DNA of 64,000 nt, from positions 352,001-416,000 of the forward strand of contig BK006947.3 in NCBI GenBank assembly GCA_000146045.2, read 5' to 3'. The notes under the pieces are model-generated. The model ran no database searches and was not told the origin of the DNA. It saw only the letters and a program-made list of their open reading frames with translations. This DNA comes from TPA_inf: Saccharomyces (Eukaryota). A program made the translations under genes and the position numbers. Positions 820 to 13,717 of this stretch are shown in pieces. The first letter of the stretch is position 1. Each line of letters opens with the position of its first letter.

Positions 820-3042
820 TCATAAATTCGTAAGGTCGTTAGTTCTATCGTAAAAGTGAAAAAGTTTTGAGCCAGTTTTCAAAAACCCGCAGGATCCCAC
901 TATGTATGGCTTTAAATAATGGTTTTTCACGTGCATCAAGTCCGTACTATCTTCACCACTATAAACTCTTATAGGTGGATTATTCGTTTCGAATGCTGGT
1001 GGCAGTGCCGGTTTGAAAATAATCTTACCTACCCATGGGTGGTCTTCCGTTAACGGTTTGATGCATCTTAATGAGTCTTTGATATATCTTTTCCTTGAAA
1101 CTAGTTGTGTCGCCGGTGCCCACTTCGAATCGTTACTGGATTGATTCTTATTTCCACATTTTAGTGACAATTTCTTTGGAAAATCATGATTTAAACAACC
1201 AGTCACGGAAAAGCTTTTCGTACTGAATATTGTACCGTACTCAACGTCCGCATTCTCATAGCGAGATTCTCTTTCATCCAAATATACCAATCTATTGATG
1301 TCATCATCCTCAACATATCCATCTTCATCATCCTCTTCGTAATTAGCATCGTCTTCGTCTTCGTCATCATCTTCATCTCCATTTACATCTTCATTGCCAC
1401 GGTTTAACTTTTCTTCACGATTCGTACGCTCAGCAGAATTCGAAATAGTTGACCTTCCTGTTCCCTCGTATACCGGTTCAAAATTATTAATTTTCAACAC
1501 TGACCGATCACAGCGCAAAGGATCTATAGGGTTGGAATTCGATCTACTTCTGAAGTTTTCATGGATGGATGTTTGTGCCGTTAAAACAGAATGTGCTGTG
1601 GGAGAAAAAGTGGAAGATAGAACAGAAGTATTGGTATTAGTAGTACTACCATTGTCATCGATTTCTTCTTGAACACTATTCAGTTCCTTCGATCTCATTT
1701 TTTGTCCAATGTCCATATTAGAGTTTTTTCTCGAACTGGAATCTGTTTTAAAGAAATTTCTTAGTTTTGATGTAAATAAGCCACAAAAATCAGTTTGAGA
1801 ACTCTCCCCTGCCAATGAACCAGAGTCATTGGGCCCATTGGAGTCATGACTCGCATCGGATACAGAGGGAGGTAGCAAGCTTAAACTTCTTGATCTTGAT
1901 TTGTTTGTCGGACGTTCGTTGCCGGTGGCCACTTTTGTTACAACAGAAGAGGTGTGTGATCTTCTTAAAAGTAAAGAGTGGGAGCGAGAATCATTTCTAT
2001 CACTATTTTGTCTGCTCTTGTTTTTGTTTTTGTTCTTATTGTGTTGCTTAAATCTTCTTGCCCTCGGATGTCTCCTTCTGGGAACGCTTCTATAGGTGGG
2101 CATTTCCCTCAATTCCAGATCCAAGGACAGGGATATACCCATGTTCAAATACATAGCCCAATAGATCAATTCGTCTACATGAGAAAACTGCACTAGAAAC
2201 TGTTGTCCCTCACAACGCATTCTTAAAACAAAATCTCTAGAGGAATAATCTATAGGCAGACCAACTTTGGCACATTGCAGGGAGTAACTCTTAAAGAGGC
2301 GCTCATCTGATAAAAATTTGTGCTCGTCTCGTGCTATTTCCCCGCATATCCTTTCCTTGTCATATTTATCGAATTGGTAAGTGGATTTCGTCGTGAACGC
2401 ATTTAATAACGACCGAGCCGAATGATGGCGATCGCTAGCAGTTTTGGAATGGTGGGAATGGTCAAACATGTCACCACCACGATAGTTTTTAATATGCCTG
2501 GTTAATGAATCGTCAATAGAATAAAAGTTTATCTGCGTAGAGTTTATTTGAAGAATAAAGTTGTTCCATAATCGAGAAGAAGCATTTTCAAAGGGCGATA
2601 GTTTTTCCATCTTCATAGAAACCACAGTATAGTGTTCTACAGACGGTGTATAACTGGGAGGTTTCACAGAAGTGAGGCACGGACGACAATGCTCATATAT
2701 AGGGTACCTAATGACTTTAGACGGATTCGCAAAATCATAACACGGAGGTTCCACTGGGTACGGATCTATGCAGTAAAGCACGTTTTTGTCAGCAACATCA
2801 ACATCTACTCCGGATTGTGGCTCCACTATTTCGTTCATGATGTTTGTGTTAATGTCTGTTATGCTATCGATATGGTTAAAAGTCACTTTCGGAAGCGGAG
2901 AATCCAGAATAGAATTACTAGTAGTACTGGAACAAAGAAACTCGTCGCCCATGGATATGGATGAGGCTGTCTGTGAAAGCTTCAGCCCCGTACTATCCAT
3001 ACCGTCGTGGTCTATTGTCATTTCAAAGATGCTGGAGGACAT
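820..3042 (-). CDS. YNL144C: Uncharacterized 740-aa protein with acidic and basic low-complexity tracts (paralog of YHR131C)
   Basis: The six-frame ORF 820..3171 gives 783 aa. I place the start at the in-frame ATG at 3040..3042 (MSSSIFEM...), giving 740 aa. It is transcribed divergently from MEP2, as on chr XIV. It contains a D/E block ([26 protein letters not shown]) and an (NK)n plus R/S-rich tract. Confidence 0.7.
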
Positions 3043-4793
3043 TTTCTGAATAGGTCCGTTTATCTCTTCTGCTGTCTGCGAAAACAACGTAAAAAAATAG
3101 TGCTTAGTGTTACTGCCTGTGTAACAACTAGTGCCAAAGTTACAAAGAAACTTCACTAACAGTTTTTGCAATTTACCAAGAAAGCACCAACAAAATAAAT
3201 AAATAGCATGCCTGTATATATTACGAAAAGTCCTTCAACTACGTCTTCCACTTGCTCTATCCCTTGGCGGAAAACAGAATACATGCAAATTTTAGAGAAT
3301 TTTTCAAGATGCCTGCCCCCCACATTTTCTTACTTGATCAAGAGCAGATCTGTTCCTTTGCGCAGGGGGTTGCATGGGGGAGAAACTGGCCGGAAGCAGC
3401 CGAAAGAAAGTTCGCAAAAAGATAATGGGGACAGTATTAGAGAAAACGGCGTGGAGGGGTATGGAGGAAACAGTTAGCATAGGTAACGAAAAACCGCAGC
3501 AAAATAATTCTCTCTTTTTTTCTTTTGACTTAGTTGTGGGACCCGGATCATTCGGTACTGCATCTTATTCCCGTGCCAAGGTCTCTGGGTGTTGCTGATT
3601 TCCGGGTATCCAGAGCTCTATCTGCTTCCGTACCCAGTGAGTGAGCTAAAATAAAAAAGGGGCCTCGGCGGAATTTGAATTCGGGTTACGTTTCCCACGG
3701 AGCCCCGGATAGAAAAGATTAGTTTCAGGTACATGTGTCAAATGAGGATAAATCTCAAACACCCATGTACCGAAAATCGATGTGTTGGTTATATTACAAG
3801 GTTGGAATAGACCACGGTGATAAGACGTGGAATTTTTGACTGACCATGCGACTCTGAAGGTGTTAACCGGAGGAATTCACGTAATTTACATCTCAAGAAC
3901 AGCAGAACAAAGATCGAGTATATGATGAAATTTCGTTTTACATGAATAAAGTCATATTTTAACTCACTGTGCACGGATTAAGGGCTGTGATTTAGTGGGA
4001 CGAGTGGTTCTACACTACTCAAGAAGTCACGCTGTCATTTGATGGAATTACAGTGCTTATTAGGAGCCGTGTAGCTTAGTGTGAATTGATGGAAGCTTTC
4101 GAGTTTCATAGAACATATCTGGTGAATGTATATGAGTTTTTCATTCCTTTTACGAGACGCAACTTTCCGCGGTTACGGAACTGTTGTTTTGTTTTACATC
4201 TTTTCATTTTTCATACATTTTATTGAGGCGTAGAAATGAAATGGGTAGAGCGGCACATGGATGTAACAATCTCCATTATTCACGTCGAGCCGATACCCGC
4301 TTCTGTTGACGCTCTGTTAAGCATAGAACCTACGAGATTTGTGCTAAAGGACGTTGGCAAGGAAGAAAACTATTGTTGATGACAGGATTTATAGCAGTAA
4401 ATATTTTTTTCTTTTTTGCGAAATTATGTACGTTTCTCATCCAAGAAGAATCCTGTTAATATTTAAATTTCTGCTAGTCATTATCATATTGCAATGGCTT
4501 TTATTAGTGAAAGCCACTGTCAACAGTAACTGAGCTACTCCCTCCAATGTTGTCTAACTCTATGCTCTTTTTGGCGTCTGAATGAGCCATAACGAGGGAA
4601 ATAACTGTATCAGGAATACTAACAGAATACAGATTGGATGCACTGGTGCTGGTGAGTTTTCTTTTTCTGATATTATTGGATAATATTTTCAGCTATAGAC
4701 TATCATCATTCAGCATTGGTCACGCTAAAATATACGTTCCATGCATACGTGATAGCCTACTCGGTTGTCAACTTCATTTTATAGGCTGCCTGG

Positions 4794-5010
4794 TCACCGA
4801 TTACCGCCCCGCTCAGCAGGACGGTTTAAGCTTCTGTTCTTGGAAACGACGTAATTCATGTCGGCCATCGAAATCATTCCTGGCTTTGTAATAGTCATAA
4901 TGAACAAGGAATGCTGTCTTGGGTTTTTTTCCCTTTGCGAATACCCGGGCTGCCAAAATAGAAAAGGAACAAATGGTAGGTCTTTAAGATAAGAAAGATA
5001 AGATAAGACA

Positions 5011-5044
<34 letters not shown>

Positions 5045-5186
5045 CCGATAACAAAGAAGAATCCTTCGGTCTCTTCTTACTGCTGTTACTGCTTATCAAG
5101 AGTGTCTGGTAATAGTCAAAGCCAGATAAGATAAGAAATGTAAAATCGACTATTTCCCTCGTAAAAAGCTTCAATTGCTCACGCAT
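4794..5186 (-). CDS. YNL143C: Hypothetical 130-aa ORF, probably non-genic (overlaps the MEP2 promoter)
   Basis: ORF track only. The ORF body spans a T32 run (5013..5044, encoding K11 on the minus strand) and a GATAAG cluster. No recognisable domain. Confidence 0.25.
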
Positions 5187-5225
5187 CGACGAATACTAAG
5201 CGGCGTGAAGACCCTGTGCCTTATC
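4988..5225 (+). promoter_or_regulatory. Cluster of GATA-factor (UAS-NTR) motifs in the MEP2 upstream region
   Basis: GATAAG at 4988..4993, 4997..5002, 5002..5007, 5125..5130 and 5130..5135. GATAAC at 5047..5052. CTTATC at 5092..5097 and 5220..5225. All lie 230 to 470 bp upstream of the MEP2 ATG. Confidence 0.65.
5013..5044 (+). repeat. T32 homopolymer (A32 on the minus strand)
   Basis: 32 consecutive T at 5013..5044. It lies inside the annotated YNL143C frame (poly-Lys) and in the MEP2 promoter. Confidence 0.95.
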
Positions 5226-5452
5226 AATGAAGTATTCAGTACAAGAGGTGTTCATTCCGAGCCACTTTTCTGCACCATATATAAGCAGTAGTTACACATG
5301 TGCTAACCAAACATCAGTGGGTAGTAATCATTCGTGCTTTCACGTCCTTTCAAATTAAATATCCTTCTTAAATAATAAGTCTGCACAGAGCTTTGAAAGA
5401 AGTTTAGTTTTGTAATATATCATACTTAATATATTACAATACAATATCAACA

Positions 5453-6952
5453 ATGTCTTACAATTTTACAGGTACGCCTACAGGCGAAGGAACGGGTGGT
5501 AACTCGTTGACAACAGATTTGAATACACAATTTGACTTGGCCAACATGGGATGGATCGGTGTGGCTTCAGCAGGTGTGTGGATTATGGTCCCAGGTATCG
5601 GTTTATTATATTCTGGTTTATCCAGGAAAAAGCATGCTTTATCCTTGCTTTGGGCCTCGATGATGGCTTCCGCCGTGTGTATTTTCCAATGGTTTTTCTG
5701 GGGATACTCATTAGCTTTCTCACACAACACTAGAGGTAACGGTTTTATTGGTACCTTGGAATTCTTTGGGTTTCGTAACGTTTTAGGAGCCCCATCTAGT
5801 GTCAGTTCTCTTCCCGATATACTGTTTGCCGTTTACCAAGGTATGTTTGCCGCAGTCACCGGTGCCCTAATGCTAGGTGGTGCCTGCGAGAGGGCAAGGT
5901 TGTTTCCTATGATGGTGTTCTTGTTTTTATGGATGACTATTGTTTATTGTCCTATTGCATGCTGGGTCTGGAATGCCGAGGGTTGGTTGGTCAAATTGGG
6001 TAGCTTGGACTATGCAGGTGGTTTATGTGTCCATTTAACATCTGGACATGGTGGTCTAGTTTACGCTTTGATACTGGGTAAGCGTAATGACCCTGTTACA
6101 CGTAAAGGGATGCCCAAGTACAAACCACATTCCGTCACCTCGGTGGTTTTAGGCACAGTGTTCTTATGGTTTGGTTGGATGTTCTTTAACGGAGGCTCTG
6201 CAGGTAATGCAACTATACGAGCATGGTACTCTATTATGTCCACAAACTTAGCTGCTGCTTGCGGTGGCTTGACATGGATGGTTATCGATTATTTCAGATG
6301 CGGAAGAAAGTGGACTACAGTTGGTTTGTGTTCAGGTATCATCGCTGGCCTAGTGGGTATCACCCCAGCCGCCGGGTTCGTGCCAATCTGGTCAGCCGTT
6401 GTCATTGGTGTGGTTACTGGTGCAGGATGTAACCTTGCTGTTGACTTAAAGAGTCTATTGCGCATCGATGATGGTCTAGATTGTTACTCTATCCATGGTG
6501 TGGGTGGTTGTATTGGTTCTGTATTAACTGGTATCTTTGCTGCAGACTATGTAAATGCCACTGCAGGCTCTTACATTAGTCCAATTGATGGTGGCTGGAT
6601 CAATCATCACTATAAACAAGTTGGTTATCAATTAGCAGGTATATGCGCTGCACTAGCCTGGACTGTTACTGTCACATCTATCTTGCTTCTAACTATGAAT
6701 GCCATTCCATTTTTAAAACTAAGATTAAGTGCTGATGAGGAAGAATTAGGTACCGACGCTGCTCAAATTGGTGAATTTACATACGAGGAATCCACTGCTT
6801 ACATCCCAGAACCAATCAGATCTAAAACATCGGCACAAATGCCACCTCCTCATGAAAACATTGATGATAAGATTGTGGGTAACACAGACGCAGAAAAGAA
6901 TTCTACGCCTTCCGACGCTTCTTCTACTAAGAACACTGACCATATAGTATAA
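5453..6952 (+). CDS. MEP2: Ammonium permease / transceptor of the Amt/MEP/Rh family (499 aa)
   Basis: Full-length ORF. N-terminus MSYNFTGTPTGEGTGGNSL and multi-TM Amt-type sequence recognised as Mep2. The upstream region is rich in GATAAG (NCR) motifs. Confidence 0.96.
   Translation: MSYNFTGTPTGEGTGGNSLTTDLNTQFDLANMGWIGVASAGVWIMVPGIGLLYSGLSRKKHALSLLWASMMASAVCIFQWFFWGYSLAFSHNTRGNGFIGTLEFFGFRNVLGAPSSVSSLPDILFAVYQGMFAAVTGALMLGGACERARLFPMMVFLFLWMTIVYCPIACWVWNAEGWLVKLGSLDYAGGLCVHLTSGHGGLVYALILGKRNDPVTRKGMPKYKPHSVTSVVLGTVFLWFGWMFFNGGSAGNATIRAWYSIMSTNLAAACGGLTWMVIDYFRCGRKWTTVGLCSGIIAGLVGITPAAGFVPIWSAVVIGVVTGAGCNLAVDLKSLLRIDDGLDCYSIHGVGGCIGSVLTGIFAADYVNATAGSYISPIDGGWINHHYKQVGYQLAGICAALAWTVTVTSILLLTMNAIPFLKLRLSADEEELGTDAAQIGEFTYEESTAYIPEPIRSKTSAQMPPPHENIDDKIVGNTDAEKNSTPSDASSTKNTDHIV

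Positions 6953-7343: not shown

Positions 7344-7387
<44 letters not shown>
7336..7387 (+). repeat. T52 homopolymer in the MEP2-AAH1 intergenic region
   Basis: 52 consecutive T at 7336..7387, about 210 bp upstream of the AAH1 ATG. Confidence 0.95.
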
Positions 7388-8923: not shown

Positions 8924-11900
8924 TTACCTCTGGTACCTACTGACGTAATTCCCACCCTTGGGACCTTGCGGAAGCGCCTGAGTATTGCTCTTTCTATTTC
9001 CGTTGTACCTTTGATTTTCATTGGCTCTATGGGCAGCACCGCTATCTCGTGTATTTCTATAATCTTGCGTTTGAAATTTGTTTCTAATTGTTTCATCCTT
9101 CTTGAATCTTTTATTCGGCTTTTCTTCATTTTCTGAAGGCGAGTCGCGCTTGTAAGATGAAGCTTGGTAAGGGTTGGCTTTGCTGCTGTCTTTGCCCTCT
9201 TGAAATGGCTTTTCAGGAAACCGTAATTGTGAACGTTGTGAACTGTTTTTCTTATACTCTTCACGTAAGCGGTTATCCCTTTGATCAAAACCATCGCCCC
9301 TGTCCGGACCTGTGGGTCTAAGTGCCCTACTTCTATCATTATATGTTTTACTTTTACTAGGTCTAGTTGGTAGTTCTGACCTTTTATGTGCATAACTACT
9401 GATTGGCTTAATATTTTTGGGTGCAGAACGATCATTGCTTGGTCCTCTATAGTTGGAACTACCATAACCATCTTTGCCTCCAGCATTTCCGCTGTACCTA
9501 CTTGATCTTTTGGTATATTCAGGAGCAGCAGCTTCAGAATATGAGCTAGTCGTATCTGGGTATGGCTCGCGCGAGATATTTTTAATATACCTTTTAAGCG
9601 AATCAATTTTTTCTGCAAAATCTGGATTTTGAGGATTTTGAATGAGTGTCCTAAAGTACCTTTCGAATATTTCCAAAGTCGAATTTCTAAAGTCGAATAT
9701 TGGCATATTTTGCTTAGATAATTTCCTTAAATTCCGAGTTTCATCGTCGTTCTCTACTAAGGAAATTGCCTTTTGTAAATGGTTCGTGGCCAAATAATGG
9801 TTTATATCGTCGACGTGCCTGGTGACTTTGGAATATGACCATTGACTACTAGAAGGTTTTGTTGGGATTACAGGCTCATTACGAGAATAAGTATATCTAT
9901 CCTTGCTATTTAATCCAGCACTGCCGCTTGCAACACTTTTGGGTGGATCATTTTGAAGTCTTTGCGACTTATTAAGCTCTAACTGCTTTCTTAAAGCTAC
10001 TTGCTTTTGTTCATTTTGGCAAGCTGTTTCATAATTTTTGATCTCTTCTAATTCCATTTCACGTATTCTCTTTTGTTCAGCTTCCTCTTCAGTTAAGGTG
10101 CAGAATTCGTCCAATTCTAAAGCGTCCTTCAAACGCGCTTTCAAATGGCCAATCAATGCGCTGCTTGGTAGTTTAATATCCTCCCTTTCTTCATTTATCA
10201 AGTTTTCCTCTAAAGTTGTGTAAACCAACTGGATATGAGCTTTCACTACAGGGAAGACACTAGTGACGTGCTTCATGAATTCAATACCGTTTCTAATTGA
10301 CATGTAATTTTTTTCGGATAAAAGGTCAATGACTTGCTCGGTAATTACTGAATGCCATTCATAAAGCTTTCGAGAAGCTTGGTCGTTGAAATCGCCATTT
10401 AATCTCATTTTTTCAAGCTTTTTAAGAACGTCAGTGAAAAACAGACCTAAATTGCCTGCTTCAGAGCTAGTACAACAGAACAGCAACGTTTTTAAAATAT
10501 TTGATGTAATACAAGTATTCAATATCGACATCAAATTTTCTGTCCTAAAAGCCATAAAGATAAAAAACGAAGAGAAGAGAGCATCTGAAGGAGAAAATAA
10601 AACCCTTGGCACAACACAATTCTGCAAGAATATCTTAATTTGATCTTCCCCGCAGTCTTTGTTCCAGACATTTGATTTTTCAGATATAAATTCTGAAGTT
10701 TTCTTGAAGGCTCTTTGATGCGAAATTCCAGTAACCAAAATATCCTTGATTTGATTCTGAATCAGGTGTTTTTTTCTATTTGACATGTGGCCCGTGTTTT
10801 CTCCGGATAGTGCATTCTTACGCTCGTCATATAGTGATTTATCGAAATGGATATCGTATAATGAAAGTCTCCAAAAAGTAGTGAAAAGATCCTTTGATAT
10901 TTTCGTTAAATCAACATCGCTAAACTCTGCACCTTCAATTAATTCATCAATAGAAAAATTCTCATTTGAGTTCAATTGATTATCCAAGTAGTCTCTCCAT
11001 ATGTGGAAAGTCCACGGTGTCGATAAATGGAACCTATTATTCAATTCTACAAATGGGAGAACATTCTCTTCAAATGCTTTCCCTTTCAAACAATGTTTAA
11101 TTAACTCAATAAACGACCATAACAATGTATTCATTTCATCGCATCTAGTGGATAAAATTTTGTAATGAGAATTTTGCGTATTTGCTTTCAGGTTTAAAGT
11201 GTATAACAGGAGAATAATCTCAGAAATAGCGCTCTGATCAGTGAAAAATGAGGTTAGCCTCGACGAAATAACCGAATTATCATCTCTAAAATCATATATG
11301 AGATGTCTTGCATATTGCTTTAATGGTGATCCTGAGTTTAACATTAATAGTTGCTTCATATTAACTTCGTTTAAGTCTCTAATGCCCCCGACTGTAATAA
11401 TTAATTCCTTTAGGATAGAAACTGCTATGATATTCCCATTATGCAACGTCTTTAAAATATAGGTGATTATATTTGAGATATCCATATTGGGACAATTTTT
11501 GGCCAAACCTGCAATAAATATTGATAATCTCTGGACCCACATGGCCTGGTTAACACCATCAAATTGAACAGCAGGCCTGTTATAAGTTAAGCGTAACAAT
11601 AATACAAATTGCAATACATCATACGCAAAATCGTTAAAGTACTTCGTGGTGTAAACAACAAGCTCAGAAACTTTGTCATAGTTTTCAATCTGCTTAACTG
11701 CTGGTACCAGTGAGGCCAATGGATTTGTAGAGATTAATTTGGCAAATCTCCTGGACTCTTTTGCGATTGTATCTATACTCAAAGCCTTCAAAATACTCTT
11801 CGCTTCTCTTTCGGCCTTATTGAAGCTCACCTTAAGCGGTAGAATATCTTGGGATAATTTCGTCATCATTTCGTTGTAAATAAAATATCTTTTTTCAAAA

Positions 11901-13717
11901 GGGAAAAATTTCATTAGTTCGTAAACTTCCGATGTGGCAATTGGATTGTTCTGCAATAGCGAGGTAGCTGGAAAAATGAATTTTCTTACATAGTCTATCC
12001 ACTTATCAATCGTAACATGCAGAGACTCAGAACCGTGGTTCTTTTGAATGTCAGCTACCCCAATACGTGAAATCTTACTCAAAAGCGTAGGAATTCTCCC
12101 CAAATACGGTCCTATGATAGATAAATAGATATGCGAGTTTTCAAATAGATCATTTACAGAAGCAAAAGGAGTCAAATTGGAATTCCACTCGCTGTAATAG
12201 AAGACGTAGCTTGAATTCAATTCAAGGGATTCAAATGGCTCGTGAGTTTTATATTTATGGATCAACCTTGGCTTATGGGCTAGAATACCATTATCTATAC
12301 GGGTTATCATCAAAGCAGTTGCCATATCTTTTGATTCACCAGATGAGGTCATTGATGTGTACAATGGATTTAAAAGATATTCAAATACTCTTCCCAAATA
12401 TCTAGATAAGGATTCACTAACATATAACACTTTCGGATATTGCTTTAACACATGTATCACGGGAATAACGCAACCATGTATGAGTAAGCGTTCCAAGAGT
12501 TTTATTTTACCAAATAATAAAATATCTTGCTGAGTTTTCTGCTTGCCTTTTGATTCTATATCAGCGTTTGTTTCCTCAGAGATTTTATCCTTCATATTAA
12601 CATCATCATTTACAACAAGGGCGTTGTCTTCGTCAGTTTCATTTTCAGTGGACAAAGCAGCTGCCATAGCCAAGGGATTTTCTACGCCTTTAGTGGACTC
12701 CTCTTCCAGTTCAGTTTCTAAGTTTTGAATATATTCTTGTAGAAATTCCATCTCTGGTTTAACGTTATCCCAAATAGAATAAAAATTGACAAACCCATTT
12801 TTCAGTAAAATGCAACACATATCCATATACCGTTCATAGTTTTCCTTATCGACTTCTTCGTTATATTGCGATAAATTGAATGAAATAATGTTTGCTGCAA
12901 TCATATTACCGCCTTCATTAAGAGAAGAATAATTGGAATTGTTAGCTACATGGCTAGATGGCCAAGAATCCGACTTTCGTAAAAGAGCAATAAAGAACTT
13001 GTACCCTTCAGTGATAAACTGACTAGAAACGTTCAAAATAACATCTAAAGTACGAATAGAATCCAAGGAATATTTCCCCATAATATGATAGATTTCTTTC
13101 AAATATGCGGACACTTTGGAAAAATTGTCGGGATCATAATACGCCAATATTAATAAGGCTACCAATTGACCATAACCCACTGAATTTTCTACCAAAAGGT
13201 TATATTTCTTCAGTTCGTATTTTGACTTTTTTAACAAATGCCTTAATAAGGTGGTTTGTTCCTTGTTGAGCAGCTTAGAGGATATCCAACTAAATTTGAA
13301 CAATTCTTCATGCAACGACGGTATTAGTTTACATAATGATATGGTTGTTAGATCATTTATATTTGGAACAGTGCTTGAGACGGCGATAAACATTTTACCA
13401 ACTATGGAAGCCTGGGACACTTGCCTTTCATGATTCACTAATTCATTAGTAAATGATGCAACATCAGAAAGCTTGAGGGGAGAATTTTCATCGTTTTTAT
13501 TTATGAAATCAAACAGTTCAATAAACAAAGTCCTCAACCAGTCTTCCTTTTCATCATTTGACTCCAGTGCAGTGAAATCGGAGCAGAGAGTTTTTGATCG
13601 TTCAGGCCAGTTTCGTATCACCTCTTCCGTTAAAATGCTTGCCTGACTAGGGGAAGCTGGTGGTATCACTTTTTGAGAAAGAGCGTTCAATTTGGAAAGT
13701 AGCGTCTGTTCTGCCAT
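8924..13717 (-). CDS. THO2: THO/TREX complex subunit Tho2 (1597 aa)
   Basis: 1615-aa ORF. The start is trimmed to the ATG at 13715..13717 (MAEQTLLSKLNALSQ...) to give 1597 aa. Long helical protein with a basic, low-complexity C-terminus. Confidence 0.92.
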   Translation of the reverse strand: MAEQTLLSKLNALSQKVIPPASPSQASILTEEVIRNWPERSKTLCSDFTALESNDEKEDWLRTLFIELFDFINKNDENSPLKLSDVASFTNELVNHERQVSQASIVGKMFIAVSSTVPNINDLTTISLCKLIPSLHEELFKFSWISSKLLNKEQTTLLRHLLKKSKYELKKYNLLVENSVGYGQLVALLILAYYDPDNFSKVSAYLKEIYHIMGKYSLDSIRTLDVILNVSSQFITEGYKFFIALLRKSDSWPSSHVANNSNYSSLNEGGNMIAANIISFNLSQYNEEVDKENYERYMDMCCILLKNGFVNFYSIWDNVKPEMEFLQEYIQNLETELEEESTKGVENPLAMAAALSTENETDEDNALVVNDDVNMKDKISEETNADIESKGKQKTQQDILLFGKIKLLERLLIHGCVIPVIHVLKQYPKVLYVSESLSRYLGRVFEYLLNPLYTSMTSSGESKDMATALMITRIDNGILAHKPRLIHKYKTHEPFESLELNSSYVFYYSEWNSNLTPFASVNDLFENSHIYLSIIGPYLGRIPTLLSKISRIGVADIQKNHGSESLHVTIDKWIDYVRKFIFPATSLLQNNPIATSEVYELMKFFPFEKRYFIYNEMMTKLSQDILPLKVSFNKAEREAKSILKALSIDTIAKESRRFAKLISTNPLASLVPAVKQIENYDKVSELVVYTTKYFNDFAYDVLQFVLLLRLTYNRPAVQFDGVNQAMWVQRLSIFIAGLAKNCPNMDISNIITYILKTLHNGNIIAVSILKELIITVGGIRDLNEVNMKQLLMLNSGSPLKQYARHLIYDFRDDNSVISSRLTSFFTDQSAISEIILLLYTLNLKANTQNSHYKILSTRCDEMNTLLWSFIELIKHCLKGKAFEENVLPFVELNNRFHLSTPWTFHIWRDYLDNQLNSNENFSIDELIEGAEFSDVDLTKISKDLFTTFWRLSLYDIHFDKSLYDERKNALSGENTGHMSNRKKHLIQNQIKDILVTGISHQRAFKKTSEFISEKSNVWNKDCGEDQIKIFLQNCVVPRVLFSPSDALFSSFFIFMAFRTENLMSILNTCITSNILKTLLFCCTSSEAGNLGLFFTDVLKKLEKMRLNGDFNDQASRKLYEWHSVITEQVIDLLSEKNYMSIRNGIEFMKHVTSVFPVVKAHIQLVYTTLEENLINEEREDIKLPSSALIGHLKARLKDALELDEFCTLTEEEAEQKRIREMELEEIKNYETACQNEQKQVALRKQLELNKSQRLQNDPPKSVASGSAGLNSKDRYTYSRNEPVIPTKPSSSQWSYSKVTRHVDDINHYLATNHLQKAISLVENDDETRNLRKLSKQNMPIFDFRNSTLEIFERYFRTLIQNPQNPDFAEKIDSLKRYIKNISREPYPDTTSSYSEAAAPEYTKRSSRYSGNAGGKDGYGSSNYRGPSNDRSAPKNIKPISSYAHKRSELPTRPSKSKTYNDRSRALRPTGPDRGDGFDQRDNRLREEYKKNSSQRSQLRFPEKPFQEGKDSSKANPYQASSYKRDSPSENEEKPNKRFKKDETIRNKFQTQDYRNTRDSGAAHRANENQRYNGNRKSNTQALPQGPKGGNYVSRYQR

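What the first reader, a model, noticed from the sequence alone, without database searches (positions are those of the whole stretch)
4794..5225. The YNL143C ORF is assembled from MEP2 promoter elements: a GATAAG cluster and an A32 run encoding poly-lysine
The 130-aa minus-strand ORF 4794..5186 has no recognisable domain. It spans exactly the interval that carries at least eight GATA motifs (GATAAG, GATAAC, CTTATC) upstream of the nitrogen-catabolite-repressed MEP2 gene. It also spans a 32-nt homopolymer (5013..5044) that, read on the minus strand, is an uninterrupted A32 giving K11. Long A tracts in coding sequence cause ribosome stalling, sliding and RQC, and are strongly avoided in genuine yeast ORFs. 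Homopolymers of this length are also length-unstable, so the frame is unlikely to be conserved between strains. The simplest reading is that this ORF is a by-product of a promoter built from GATA sites and a nucleosome-excluding poly(dA:dT) tract. Any transcript through it would be MEP2-promoter-associated noncoding RNA.
Basis: partly seen in the sequence, partly recalled or inferred. Interest (0 to 1): 0.55.

Follow-up and report, generated by a model that had tools for sequence, protein, structure and literature searches.

The report
Chance ORF inside the MEP2 promoter
The 130-codon yeast ORF YNL143C is an unconserved reading frame lying across the well-known GATA-site and poly(T) control region of the ammonium-permease gene MEP2, so the DNA matters as a promoter, not as a gene, even though the lab strain makes a little protein from it.

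Summary
ORF 4794..5186(-) is 130 aa. T32 lies at 5013..5044. Eight GATAA-core sites lie in 4988..5225, seven of them GATAAG (Poisson P about 7e-10). Two small corrections: A32 encodes K10, not K11, and one GATA site lies outside the ORF.

Comparison with seven other Saccharomyces genomes shows DNA-level, promoter-type constraint. GATA hexamers are 90% identical. The conserved island 4963..5288 ignores both ORF borders. There is no 3-nt periodicity, and dN/dS is about 0.6 against 0.02 for MEP2.

From the homologous ATG the frame runs 130 aa (S. cerevisiae), 82 (S. paradoxus), 80 (S. mikatae) and 29 (S. kudriavzevii). The ATG is absent in S. arboricola, S. eubayanus and S. uvarum.

Within S. cerevisiae the T-run reads 10-33 in the assemblies, and all three downstream frames occur. 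Only 14 of 74 annotated variants keep the reference frame. No homologue exists outside S. cerevisiae.

Published EMSA oligos bound by Gat1 map exactly onto two GATA clusters inside the ORF.

A C-terminally TAP-tagged YNL143C protein is detectable in BY4741-background strains, so the "purely noncoding" claim does not hold.

Verdict: a known promoter plus a transient proto-gene-like ORF. It is already known in substance and of low interest.

The parts
4794..5186 (-). YNL143C ORF, 130 aa in this S288C-type sequence. It is an orphan whose frame is not conserved.
   Evidence: ORF confirmed. Pfam gives no hit. Only S. cerevisiae variants are found among 5.8 billion clusters and 1.84 billion representatives. 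The frame differs between strains and species.
4988..5007 (+). Distal GATA cluster (GATAAG-AAA-GATAAGATAAG, 3 sites). It is part of the MEP2 UAS-NTR.
   Evidence: Sites located. Window 4995..5007 is invariant in Scer/Spar/Smik/Skud, and the cluster is present in all 8 genomes. The Gat1 EMSA oligo MEP2_motif1 equals window 4982..5011.
5013..5044 (+). Poly(dT) tract T32 on the MEP2 coding strand, which reads as A32 and encodes K10 in the ORF.
   Evidence: Located. The same site holds T28 in S. paradoxus and T26 in S. mikatae, and interrupted T-rich tracts in the other species. S. cerevisiae assemblies read 10-33. The orientation fits the canonical poly(dT) position 5' of the NFR centre (PMC8347975).
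5047..5052 (+). GATAAC site.
   Evidence: Conserved in 7 of 8 genomes; S. mikatae has GATAGC. Some S. cerevisiae short-read contigs carry GTAAC.
5092..5097 (-). GATAAG site on the minus strand (CTTATC).
   Evidence: Located. Kept in Spar, Seub and Suva; changed in Smik, Skud and Sarb.
5125..5135 (+). Proximal tandem GATAAGATAAG (2 sites).
   Evidence: Invariant in all 8 genomes. Invariant block 5124..5138. The Gat1 EMSA oligo MEP2_motif2 equals window 5114..5143.
5209..5226 (.). Invariant block AGACCCTGTGCCTTATCA, which contains the eighth GATA site (CTTATC 5220..5225). It lies outside the ORF.
5278..5285 (+). TATATAAG, the putative MEP2 TATA box, 168 nt upstream of the ATG.
   Evidence: Invariant block 5278..5288. 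Its function is inferred.
4924..4930 (+). Second short homopolymer (T7). Its length polymorphism causes a further frameshift, giving REKNPRQ... versus REKSQDSIPCSL*.
5453..6952 (+). MEP2 coding sequence (499 aa ammonium permease), the gene served by the promoter.
   Evidence: PF00909. dN/dS is 0.02 as a control.

Best explanation
Interval 4963..5288 is the nitrogen-catabolite-repression upstream activating region of MEP2.

Its layout, from distal to proximal, is:
- three GATAAG sites
- a poly(dT) tract
- GATAAC
- CTTATC
- a tandem GATAAGATAAG
- CTTATC
- a TATA box

The GATA factors Gln3 and Gat1 (activators) and Dal80 and Gzf3 (repressors) bind the GATA sites. The poly(dT) tract lies on the MEP2 coding strand, upstream of the proximal sites. 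It most likely keeps the region 3' of it nucleosome-depleted through RSC (inferred).

Read on the opposite strand, GATAAG repeats (CTTATC...) and poly(A) are free of stop codons in all three frames. That predisposes the region to a long antisense open frame. In the S288C lineage this frame happens to join an ATG at 5186 to a stop at 4794, giving the 130 codons annotated as YNL143C.

The ORF has no conserved protein-level function. Its frame downstream of the A-run changes whenever the homopolymer changes length. A divergent transcript from the MEP2 promoter is evidently translated at a low level in the lab strain, which gives it proto-gene-like behaviour.

Shown: the motif layout, its conservation, the non-conservation of the frame, and published Gat1 binding, ChIP and TAP-western data. 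Inferred: nucleosome depletion by the T tract, the origin of the minus-strand transcript, and the absence of protein function.
For: 1. GATA hexamer positions are 90% identical across 7 other Saccharomyces genomes. The rest of the ORF's N-terminal part is 61-67% identical and its C-terminal part 47%.
2. The conserved island 4963..5288 ignores both ORF borders. ORF part 4803..4962 sits at the intergenic background of 0.51-0.61.
3. Codon-position identity is 0.833/0.830/0.840, against 0.98/0.99/0.80 for MEP2. NG86 dN/dS is 0.60-0.65 against 0.02.
4. From the homologous ATG the frame runs 130/82/80/29 codons in Scer/Spar/Smik/Skud. The ATG is TTG in Sarb, Seub and Suva. No gene is called there in those genomes, apart from an unrelated-start 144-aa call in L008.
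5. S. cerevisiae assemblies read T10, 24, 26, 27, 28, 32 and 33, giving ORFs of 89, 64, 128, 65, 95, 130 and 67 aa. Only 14 of 74 member sequences keep the reference frame.
6. There is no homologue outside S. cerevisiae and no Pfam hit.
7. An ORF of at least 130 codons arises in 1.8% of Markov randomisations of this one spacer, and one of at least 100 codons in 11%. GATAAG repeats are stop-free on the minus strand.
8. Random substitution alone would keep the open N-terminal frame in Spar with P = 0.60 and in Smik with P = 0.30.
9. Literature on the promoter: the Gat1-DBD EMSA targets equal window 4982..5011 and 5114..5143. A gat1 gln3 double knockout abolishes MEP2 promoter activity (PMC5903863). 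Dal80 and Gat1 ChIP signals lie at the MEP2 promoter, and PMEP2 confers NCR on URA3 (PMC6413948).
10. Literature on phenotype and chromatin: MEP2 and YNL143C deletion strains are the most strongly dependent pair in HIPHOP profiles, as expected if ynl143c-delta removes the MEP2 UAS (PMC4642827). Poly(dT) 5' of the NFR centre on the coding strand is the canonical RSC-read arrangement (PMC8347975).
Against: - A C-terminal TAP fusion of YNL143C is detected by western blot and falls in asc1-delta (PMC8102910). mRNA and protein were reported earlier. So the frame is translated through A32 in S288C-derived cells.
- The first 47 codons and the ATG are kept in all annotated S. cerevisiae variants but one (P0015), and the frame is open in S. 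paradoxus and S. mikatae. This is weak evidence, because it is expected by chance and the variant set is biased by annotation.
- Some T-run lengths come from nanopore-based assemblies, which mis-call homopolymers. An example is T10 in L019, a chromosome-level NCBI assembly whose 89-aa product is the SCEN_N01910 entry P0014 (I believe this is the nanopore-based CEN.PK assembly, from memory). Absolute lengths are therefore uncertain.
- Nucleosome depletion and the minus-strand TSS were not tested here.
Confidence: 0.85

Rival explanations
1. YNL143C is a genuine, very young de novo protein-coding gene of S. cerevisiae. Its 130-aa product has a function, and it overlaps the MEP2 promoter only by accident of origin.
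For: The TAP-tagged protein is detected, and its level responds to asc1-delta. mRNA and protein were reported earlier. The N-terminal 47 aa are nearly invariant among annotated S. cerevisiae variants.
Against: Only 14 of 74 variant sequences keep the reference C-terminal frame, and three of seven complete assemblies give 64-67 aa truncations. There is no periodicity, and dN/dS is about 0.6 with only 3 synonymous changes. N-terminal invariance is explained by the promoter constraint, which extends equally past the ATG. The HIPHOP profile mirrors that of MEP2.
Confidence: 0.05
2. The functional unit is only the short N-terminal peptide plus the poly-lysine or poly(A) run. This could work in two ways. 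It could be a micropeptide. Or translation into A32 could trigger ribosome sliding and no-go decay, which would dispose of the divergent promoter transcript. In either case the variable tail would be irrelevant.
For: The ATG, about 47 open codons and a long A-run (26-32) co-occur in S. cerevisiae, S. paradoxus and S. mikatae. Poly(A) encodes lysine in every frame, so the unit tolerates length changes.
Against: Chance alone predicts an open frame in these close relatives: P = 0.60 and 0.30. There is no periodicity. S. mikatae already carries a frameshift before the A-run. Deleting LTN1 does not change the full-length TAP-fusion level, and deleting ASC1 lowers it rather than raising it as seen for RQC reporters. 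The authors caution that a C-terminal tag cannot report truncated products. The A-run is absent in four other species that keep the promoter layout.
Confidence: 0.05
3. The minus-strand transcript itself is a regulatory noncoding RNA. Transcription through the GATA cluster modulates factor binding or nucleosomes at the MEP2 UAS, by transcriptional interference or promoter-associated RNA. Translation is incidental.
For: The ORF starts only about 90 nt from a palindromic-like TATATA element (5278..5285), so divergent initiation is plausible (sequence).
Against: No Rfam family matches. The distal half of the transcribed region is unconserved. NCR regulation of MEP2 is fully accounted for by GATA factors in the published work.
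Confidence: 0.05

Closest known systems
UAS-NTR: clustered GATAA(G) sites of nitrogen-catabolite-repressed yeast promoters (DAL5, UGA4, GAP1, MEP2), bound by Gln3/Gat1/Dal80/Gzf3
   Same: Multiple closely spaced GATAAG sites lie in both orientations within 500 bp of an NCR-sensitive gene. The two tandem clusters are the very oligos used for Gat1 EMSAs. ChIP shows Dal80 and Gat1 at this promoter.
   Different: Nothing essential differs; this is that element. The only addition is that SGD annotates an ORF across it.
Promoter poly(dA:dT) tracts that create nucleosome-depleted regions (HIS3/PET56-type; RSC-read, strand-biased)
   Same: A long homopolymer lies in a promoter, with poly(dT) on the coding strand upstream of the factor sites and TATA, the canonical orientation. 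Its length is variable between strains.
   Different: At 32 nt it is unusually long. It is a pure run only in the S. cerevisiae/paradoxus/mikatae clade, and interrupted T-rich tracts occupy the site elsewhere. Nucleosome depletion here was not measured.
Dubious ORFs and proto-genes of S. cerevisiae (non-conserved ORFs overlapping regulatory DNA; Carvunis-type proto-genes, cited from my own knowledge)
   Same: It is an orphan, with syntenic non-genic sequence in sister species, no purifying selection, and low-level expression.
   Different: It is longer than most and has direct western evidence. Its frame is toggled by a homopolymer. SGD has moved it between 'dubious' and 'uncharacterized' (the current status is from memory).
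Endogenous poly(A)/polybasic stalling sequences (SDD1, RQC1), studied as RQC targets
   Same: It contains the longest coding A-run in the yeast proteome, 32 A, and was chosen as a model for that reason.
   Different: It showed no RQC signature. Ribosome-profiling coverage was too low. The tract is a promoter element, not an evolved coding feature.

Membership tests
UAS-NTR (GATA-factor NCR promoter element) | Two or more GATAA/GATAAG sites close together upstream of the gene | tested here: met
   Eight sites lie in 238 bp, 232-465 nt upstream of the MEP2 ATG. P = 7e-10 for the seven GATAAG.
UAS-NTR (GATA-factor NCR promoter element) | Sites conserved in orthologous promoters | tested here: met
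   Hexamer positions are 90% identical in 7 other Saccharomyces genomes, and the layout is kept in all of them.
UAS-NTR (GATA-factor NCR promoter element) | Bound by Gln3/Gat1/Dal80 and required for NCR-sensitive expression | not testable with these tools
   Literature only. The Gat1 DBD EMSA used oligos identical to window 4982..5011 and 5114..5143, and a gat1 gln3 double knockout gives no promoter activity. Dal80 and Gat1 ChIP signals lie at the promoter, and PMEP2-URA3 is NCR-sensitive.
Nucleosome-depleting promoter poly(dA:dT) tract | Long uninterrupted homopolymer in a promoter, with poly(dT) on the coding strand 5' of the NFR centre | tested here: met
   T32 lies at -440..-409 relative to the MEP2 ATG on the MEP2 sense strand. 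The orientation rule comes from PMC8347975.
Nucleosome-depleting promoter poly(dA:dT) tract | Nucleosome depletion in vivo and an effect of tract length on expression | not testable with these tools
   No occupancy data are available here. The nitrogen-condition nucleosome paper gave no MEP2 promoter detail.
Conserved protein-coding gene | Reading frame maintained in orthologous loci and among strains | tested here: not met
   The frame runs 130/82/80/29 codons, and the ATG is absent in 3 species. All three frames occur among strains.
Conserved protein-coding gene | Purifying selection at the protein level (dN/dS well below 1, excess third-position divergence) | tested here: not met
   dN/dS is 0.60-0.65 and codon-position identities are flat. 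The MEP2 control gives 0.02 and strong periodicity. Power is low: 47 codons.
Conserved protein-coding gene | Homologues or a recognisable domain | tested here: not met
   Pfam gives 0 hits. Only S. cerevisiae variants are found.
Proto-gene / de novo ORF | Orphan ORF with syntenic non-coding sequence in outgroups | tested here: met
Proto-gene / de novo ORF | Evidence of transcription and translation | not testable with these tools
   Literature only: TAP western and mRNA plus protein. Ribosome-profiling coverage is low. The ORF is not in the Blevins 2021 de novo transcript supplements held.

The most novel reading that the evidence does not exclude
The poly(dT) tract may be an evolvable tuning knob with two outputs. 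First, its length and the copy number of the flanking GATAAG repeats may set how wide the nucleosome-free region is, and therefore how strongly MEP2 is induced in different strains. The tract reads 24-33 nt in most S. cerevisiae assemblies and 26-28 nt in S. paradoxus and S. mikatae; the repeats number 2 or 3. Second, each length change toggles the reading frame of a translated divergent transcript, giving strain-specific C-termini. That would be a eukaryotic analogue of a homopolymer contingency locus. The evidence here shows the polymorphism and the retention of a long pure run in three species. It shows nothing about the effect on expression.
Probability: 0.2. Interest if true: 0.45.

Novelty: already known. 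Interest (0 to 1): 0.2.

Why it matters
The value is mainly for annotation and for interpreting existing data.

1. The ynl143c-delta strain of the deletion collection removes seven of the eight GATA sites and the T tract of MEP2. Its phenotypes should therefore be read as MEP2 promoter phenotypes. The HIPHOP dependence between MEP2 and YNL143C fits this.
2. YNL143C has been used as the extreme endogenous example of a poly(A)/poly-lysine coding tract in work on ribosome quality control. The tract is in fact a promoter element in a non-conserved frame, so it says little about how genuine genes tolerate such tracts.
3. It is a clean textbook case of how regulatory sequence composition can seed a proto-gene. 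GATAAG repeats and poly(T) are stop-free on the opposite strand.

None of this changes what is known about NCR regulation.

Tried and rejected
- Pfam at E <= 10 gave nothing.
- An exhaustive HMMER search over 1.84 billion representatives found only S. cerevisiae variants.
- Rfam and tRNA scans of 3000..5500/7700 gave nothing.
- The MEP2 protein search could not deliver sister-species loci, because all sensu stricto Mep2 proteins collapse into one 90% cluster. I went through the faster-evolving neighbour YNL144C/MPF1 instead, and through cluster members.
- Short-read (Logan) contigs always break inside the T-run. They give only lower bounds on its length: and 37 for L024-L038.
- The Blevins 2021 de novo transcript supplements do not mention YNL143C or MEP2.
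- Marini et al. 1997, the original MEP2 paper, is not held.
- The nitrogen-condition nucleosome-mapping paper has no MEP2 promoter detail.
- One literature search failed on syntax.
- I considered whether the open N-terminal frame in S. paradoxus and S. mikatae indicates selection. I rejected this, because random substitution alone would keep it open with P = 0.60 and 0.30.
- I considered the 144-aa ORF called in the S. uvarum-like contig L008 as an orthologue. I rejected it. It starts at a different ATG (-150), inside the MEP2 5' region. S. uvarum proper stops after 69 aa, and S. eubayanus has no equivalent.
- The sigma-70 promoter and terminator scanner was not used, because it does not apply to yeast.

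Full report
**What is there**

The window is S. cerevisiae chromosome XIV of S288C type.
- THO2 (8924..13717, minus strand) is identical to S288C Tho2p.
- The 499-aa ORF at 5453..6952 is the ammonium permease Mep2.
- The 740-aa ORF ending at 3042 is YNL144C/MPF1.

In the 2.4-kb spacer between the last two lies the minus-strand ATG ORF 4794..5186, 130 aa. An uninterrupted T32 sits at 5013..5044.

Eight GATAA-core motifs sit between 4988 and 5225:
- GATAAG at 4988, 4997, 5002, 5125 and 5130
- GATAAC at 5047
- CTTATC at 5092 and 5220

Seven GATAAG in 238 bp compare with 46 in the whole 64 kb on both strands. The expectation is 0.17 and Poisson P = 7e-10.

Three details need correcting. A32 gives GAA + 10 AAA, which is K10 and not K11 (the same count appears in PMC8102910). 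The CTTATC at 5220 is outside the ORF. The ORF runs 194 nt beyond the distal end of the GATA cluster.

**Comparative data**

All sensu stricto Mep2 proteins fall into one 90% cluster. I therefore used the faster-evolving neighbour YNL144C and cluster members to fetch the complete orthologous spacers:

| Species | Locus |
|---|---|
| S. paradoxus CBS432 | L016 |
| S. mikatae IFO1815 | L013 |
| S. kudriavzevii IFO1802 | L005 |
| S. arboricola H-6 | L015 |
| S. eubayanus | L018 |
| S. uvarum | L007 |
| S. uvarum-like contig | L008 |

The alignment shows the same promoter layout in all eight genomes. From distal to proximal it is:
- two or three distal GATAAG sites
- a T-rich tract
- GATAAC
- CTTATC
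- an invariant GATAAGATAAG
- an invariant AGACCCTGTGCCTTATCA block
- an invariant TATATAAG

GATA hexamer positions are 90% identical to S. cerevisiae across the seven other genomes. The rest of the ORF's N-terminal part is 61-67% identical. The ORF's C-terminal part is 47% identical.

In the four species with the long spacer, the conserved island runs from about 4963 to 5288 (0.74-0.86 identity). It begins at the GATA cluster, not at the ORF's stop. It continues about 100 nt past the ORF's ATG to the TATA box. ORF positions 4803..4962 sit at the spacer background of 0.51-0.61.

**Is the frame under coding constraint?**

No. The evidence has four parts.

1. Length of the frame from the homologous ATG:

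| Species | Result |
|---|---|
| S. cerevisiae | 130 codons |
| S. paradoxus | 82 codons |
| S. mikatae | 80 codons |
| S. kudriavzevii | 29 codons |
| S. arboricola, S. eubayanus, S. uvarum | ATG replaced by TTG; stops follow within 9-30 codons |

2. The region after the A-run differs by many indels that are not multiples of three, even between S. cerevisiae and S. paradoxus.

3. Codon-position identity over the first 47 codons is 0.833/0.830/0.840 (S. paradoxus plus S. mikatae). For MEP2 it is 0.98/0.99/0.80. Nei-Gojobori dN/dS is 0.60 and 0.65, against 0.02 and 0.01 for MEP2. The ORF's 'synonymous' divergence (0.125) is well below that of MEP2 (0.40), as expected for DNA-level constraint.

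4. Random substitution alone would keep the first 47 codons open in S. paradoxus with P = 0.60 and in S. mikatae with P = 0.30.

The ORF has no Pfam match. It has no homologue outside S. cerevisiae, either in the 5.8-billion-cluster search or in the exhaustive search of 1.84 billion representatives.

A 130-codon ORF arises in 1.8% of Markov randomisations of this single spacer, and a 100-codon ORF in 11%. GATAAG repeats and poly(T) on the plus strand are stop-free in all three frames of the minus strand. On the plus strand the same repeats contain TAA.

**Within S. cerevisiae**

The 15 protein clusters found (74 member sequences) share the first 47 residues. They carry 1 to 9 lysines and then continue in different frames. 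A second frameshift occurs at the short T7 run (4924..4930).

Only 14 of the 74 keep the reference frame to the reference stop.

Seven complete assemblies carrying the same or nearly the same MEP2 allele give these values:

| T-run length | ORF length (aa) |
|---|---|
| 10 | 89 |
| 24 | 64 |
| 26 | 128 |
| 27 | 65 |
| 28 | 95 |
| 32 | 130 |
| 33 | 67 |

Two caveats apply.
- Several assemblies are nanopore-based, so individual lengths may be miscalls. T10 in L019 is the main suspect; I believe, from memory, that it is the nanopore-based CEN.PK assembly.
- Short-read contigs all break inside the run.

The variation nevertheless appears across technologies. It is accompanied by non-homopolymer differences: loss of one GATAAG unit, and a GATAAC-to-GTAAC deletion.

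**The T tract**

A T-rich element at this position is ancestral. A long pure run (26-32) exists only in the S. cerevisiae/paradoxus/mikatae clade.

It is poly(dT) on the MEP2 coding strand, 5' of the proximal GATA sites and the TATA box. According to Barnes and Korber this is the arrangement that RSC reads to open a nucleosome-free region 3' of poly(dT) (PMC8347975). Its function here is inferred, not shown.

**Published experiments**

For a promoter role:
- Hong et al. 2018 used two MEP2 promoter oligos for Gat1 DNA-binding-domain EMSAs. They are identical to window 4982..5011 (three GATAA) and 5114..5143 (two GATAA), both inside the ORF. A gat1 gln3 double knockout abolishes MEP2 promoter activity.
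- Ronsmans et al. 2019 show Dal80 and Gat1 ChIP signal at the MEP2 promoter, and that PMEP2 makes URA3 NCR-sensitive.
- In HIPHOP chemogenomic data, MEP2 and YNL143C deletions form the most strongly dependent gene pair. This is what one expects if ynl143c-delta is a MEP2 UAS deletion.

Against a purely noncoding reading:
- Barros et al. 2021 detect a chromosomal C-terminal TAP fusion of YNL143C by western blot. It is unchanged in ltn1-delta and reduced in asc1-delta. They note that ribosome-profiling coverage is too low to analyse.
- Ma and Xia 2011 record that SGD listed the ORF as dubious although mRNA and protein had been detected.

**Conclusion**

The ORF is assembled from, and constrained as, MEP2 promoter DNA, and its frame is not maintained between strains or species.

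In the S288C background the ORF is translated to a detectable level, so it behaves as a transient proto-gene rather than a silent stretch.

All elements were already known: the GATA UAS of MEP2, poly(dA:dT) promoter tracts, the doubtful status of YNL143C and its 32-A run. The contribution here is the explicit comparative and population evidence tying them together.

Practical consequences:
- Phenotypes of ynl143c-delta should be attributed to MEP2.
- YNL143C is a poor model for how real genes cope with coding poly(A).

Interest is low.

Noticed in passing
window 7346-7387: A second, longer homopolymer (T42) lies between the MEP2 stop (6952) and the AAH1 ATG (7596). It is poly(dT) on the AAH1 coding strand, about 210-250 nt upstream. 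Every short-read contig carrying MEP2 ends in it. It is presumably the AAH1 promoter NDR element.
   Followed up: partly
window 3203-3400: A strongly conserved island lies 160-360 nt upstream of the YNL144C/MPF1 ATG. Identity among S. cerevisiae, S. paradoxus, S. mikatae and S. kudriavzevii is 80-94%. Invariant blocks are at 3255-3269, 3317-3327 and 3353-3362. The motif content was not analysed.
   Followed up: no
window 5073-5083, 5161-5183, 5209-5219: There are conserved non-GATA blocks inside the MEP2 promoter. One example is AGACCCTGTGC, invariant in all 8 genomes and abutting the CTTATC at 5220. They suggest additional, unidentified factor sites.
   Followed up: no
window 4988-5007; proteins P0008 and P0011; loci L015, L018, L007: The copy number of the distal GATAAG repeat varies. 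It is three in the reference, S. paradoxus, S. mikatae and S. kudriavzevii. It is two in S. arboricola, S. eubayanus, S. uvarum and some S. cerevisiae strains.
   Followed up: partly
L030-L035 (position equivalent to window 5047-5052): Six short-read contigs from one project carry a 1-nt deletion that turns GATAAC into GTAAC, destroying that GATA site.
   Followed up: no
spacer YNL144C-MEP2: window 3043-5452 versus L007 and L018: The spacer is about 2.4 kb in S. cerevisiae, S. paradoxus, S. mikatae and S. kudriavzevii. It is only about 1.4 kb in S. uvarum and S. eubayanus. The extra kilobase (roughly 3640-4680) is poorly conserved.
   Followed up: no
protein cluster P0016: The 90%-identity cluster that holds Mep2 also holds Aah1 (347 aa) sequences. 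A fused gene model probably bridges the two neighbours. This is a database artefact, not biology.
   Followed up: no
L020 541-934: One S. cerevisiae assembly lists a 130-aa product on a 394-nt interval, not a multiple of three, with T33. The annotation was apparently lifted over a frameshift.
   Followed up: no
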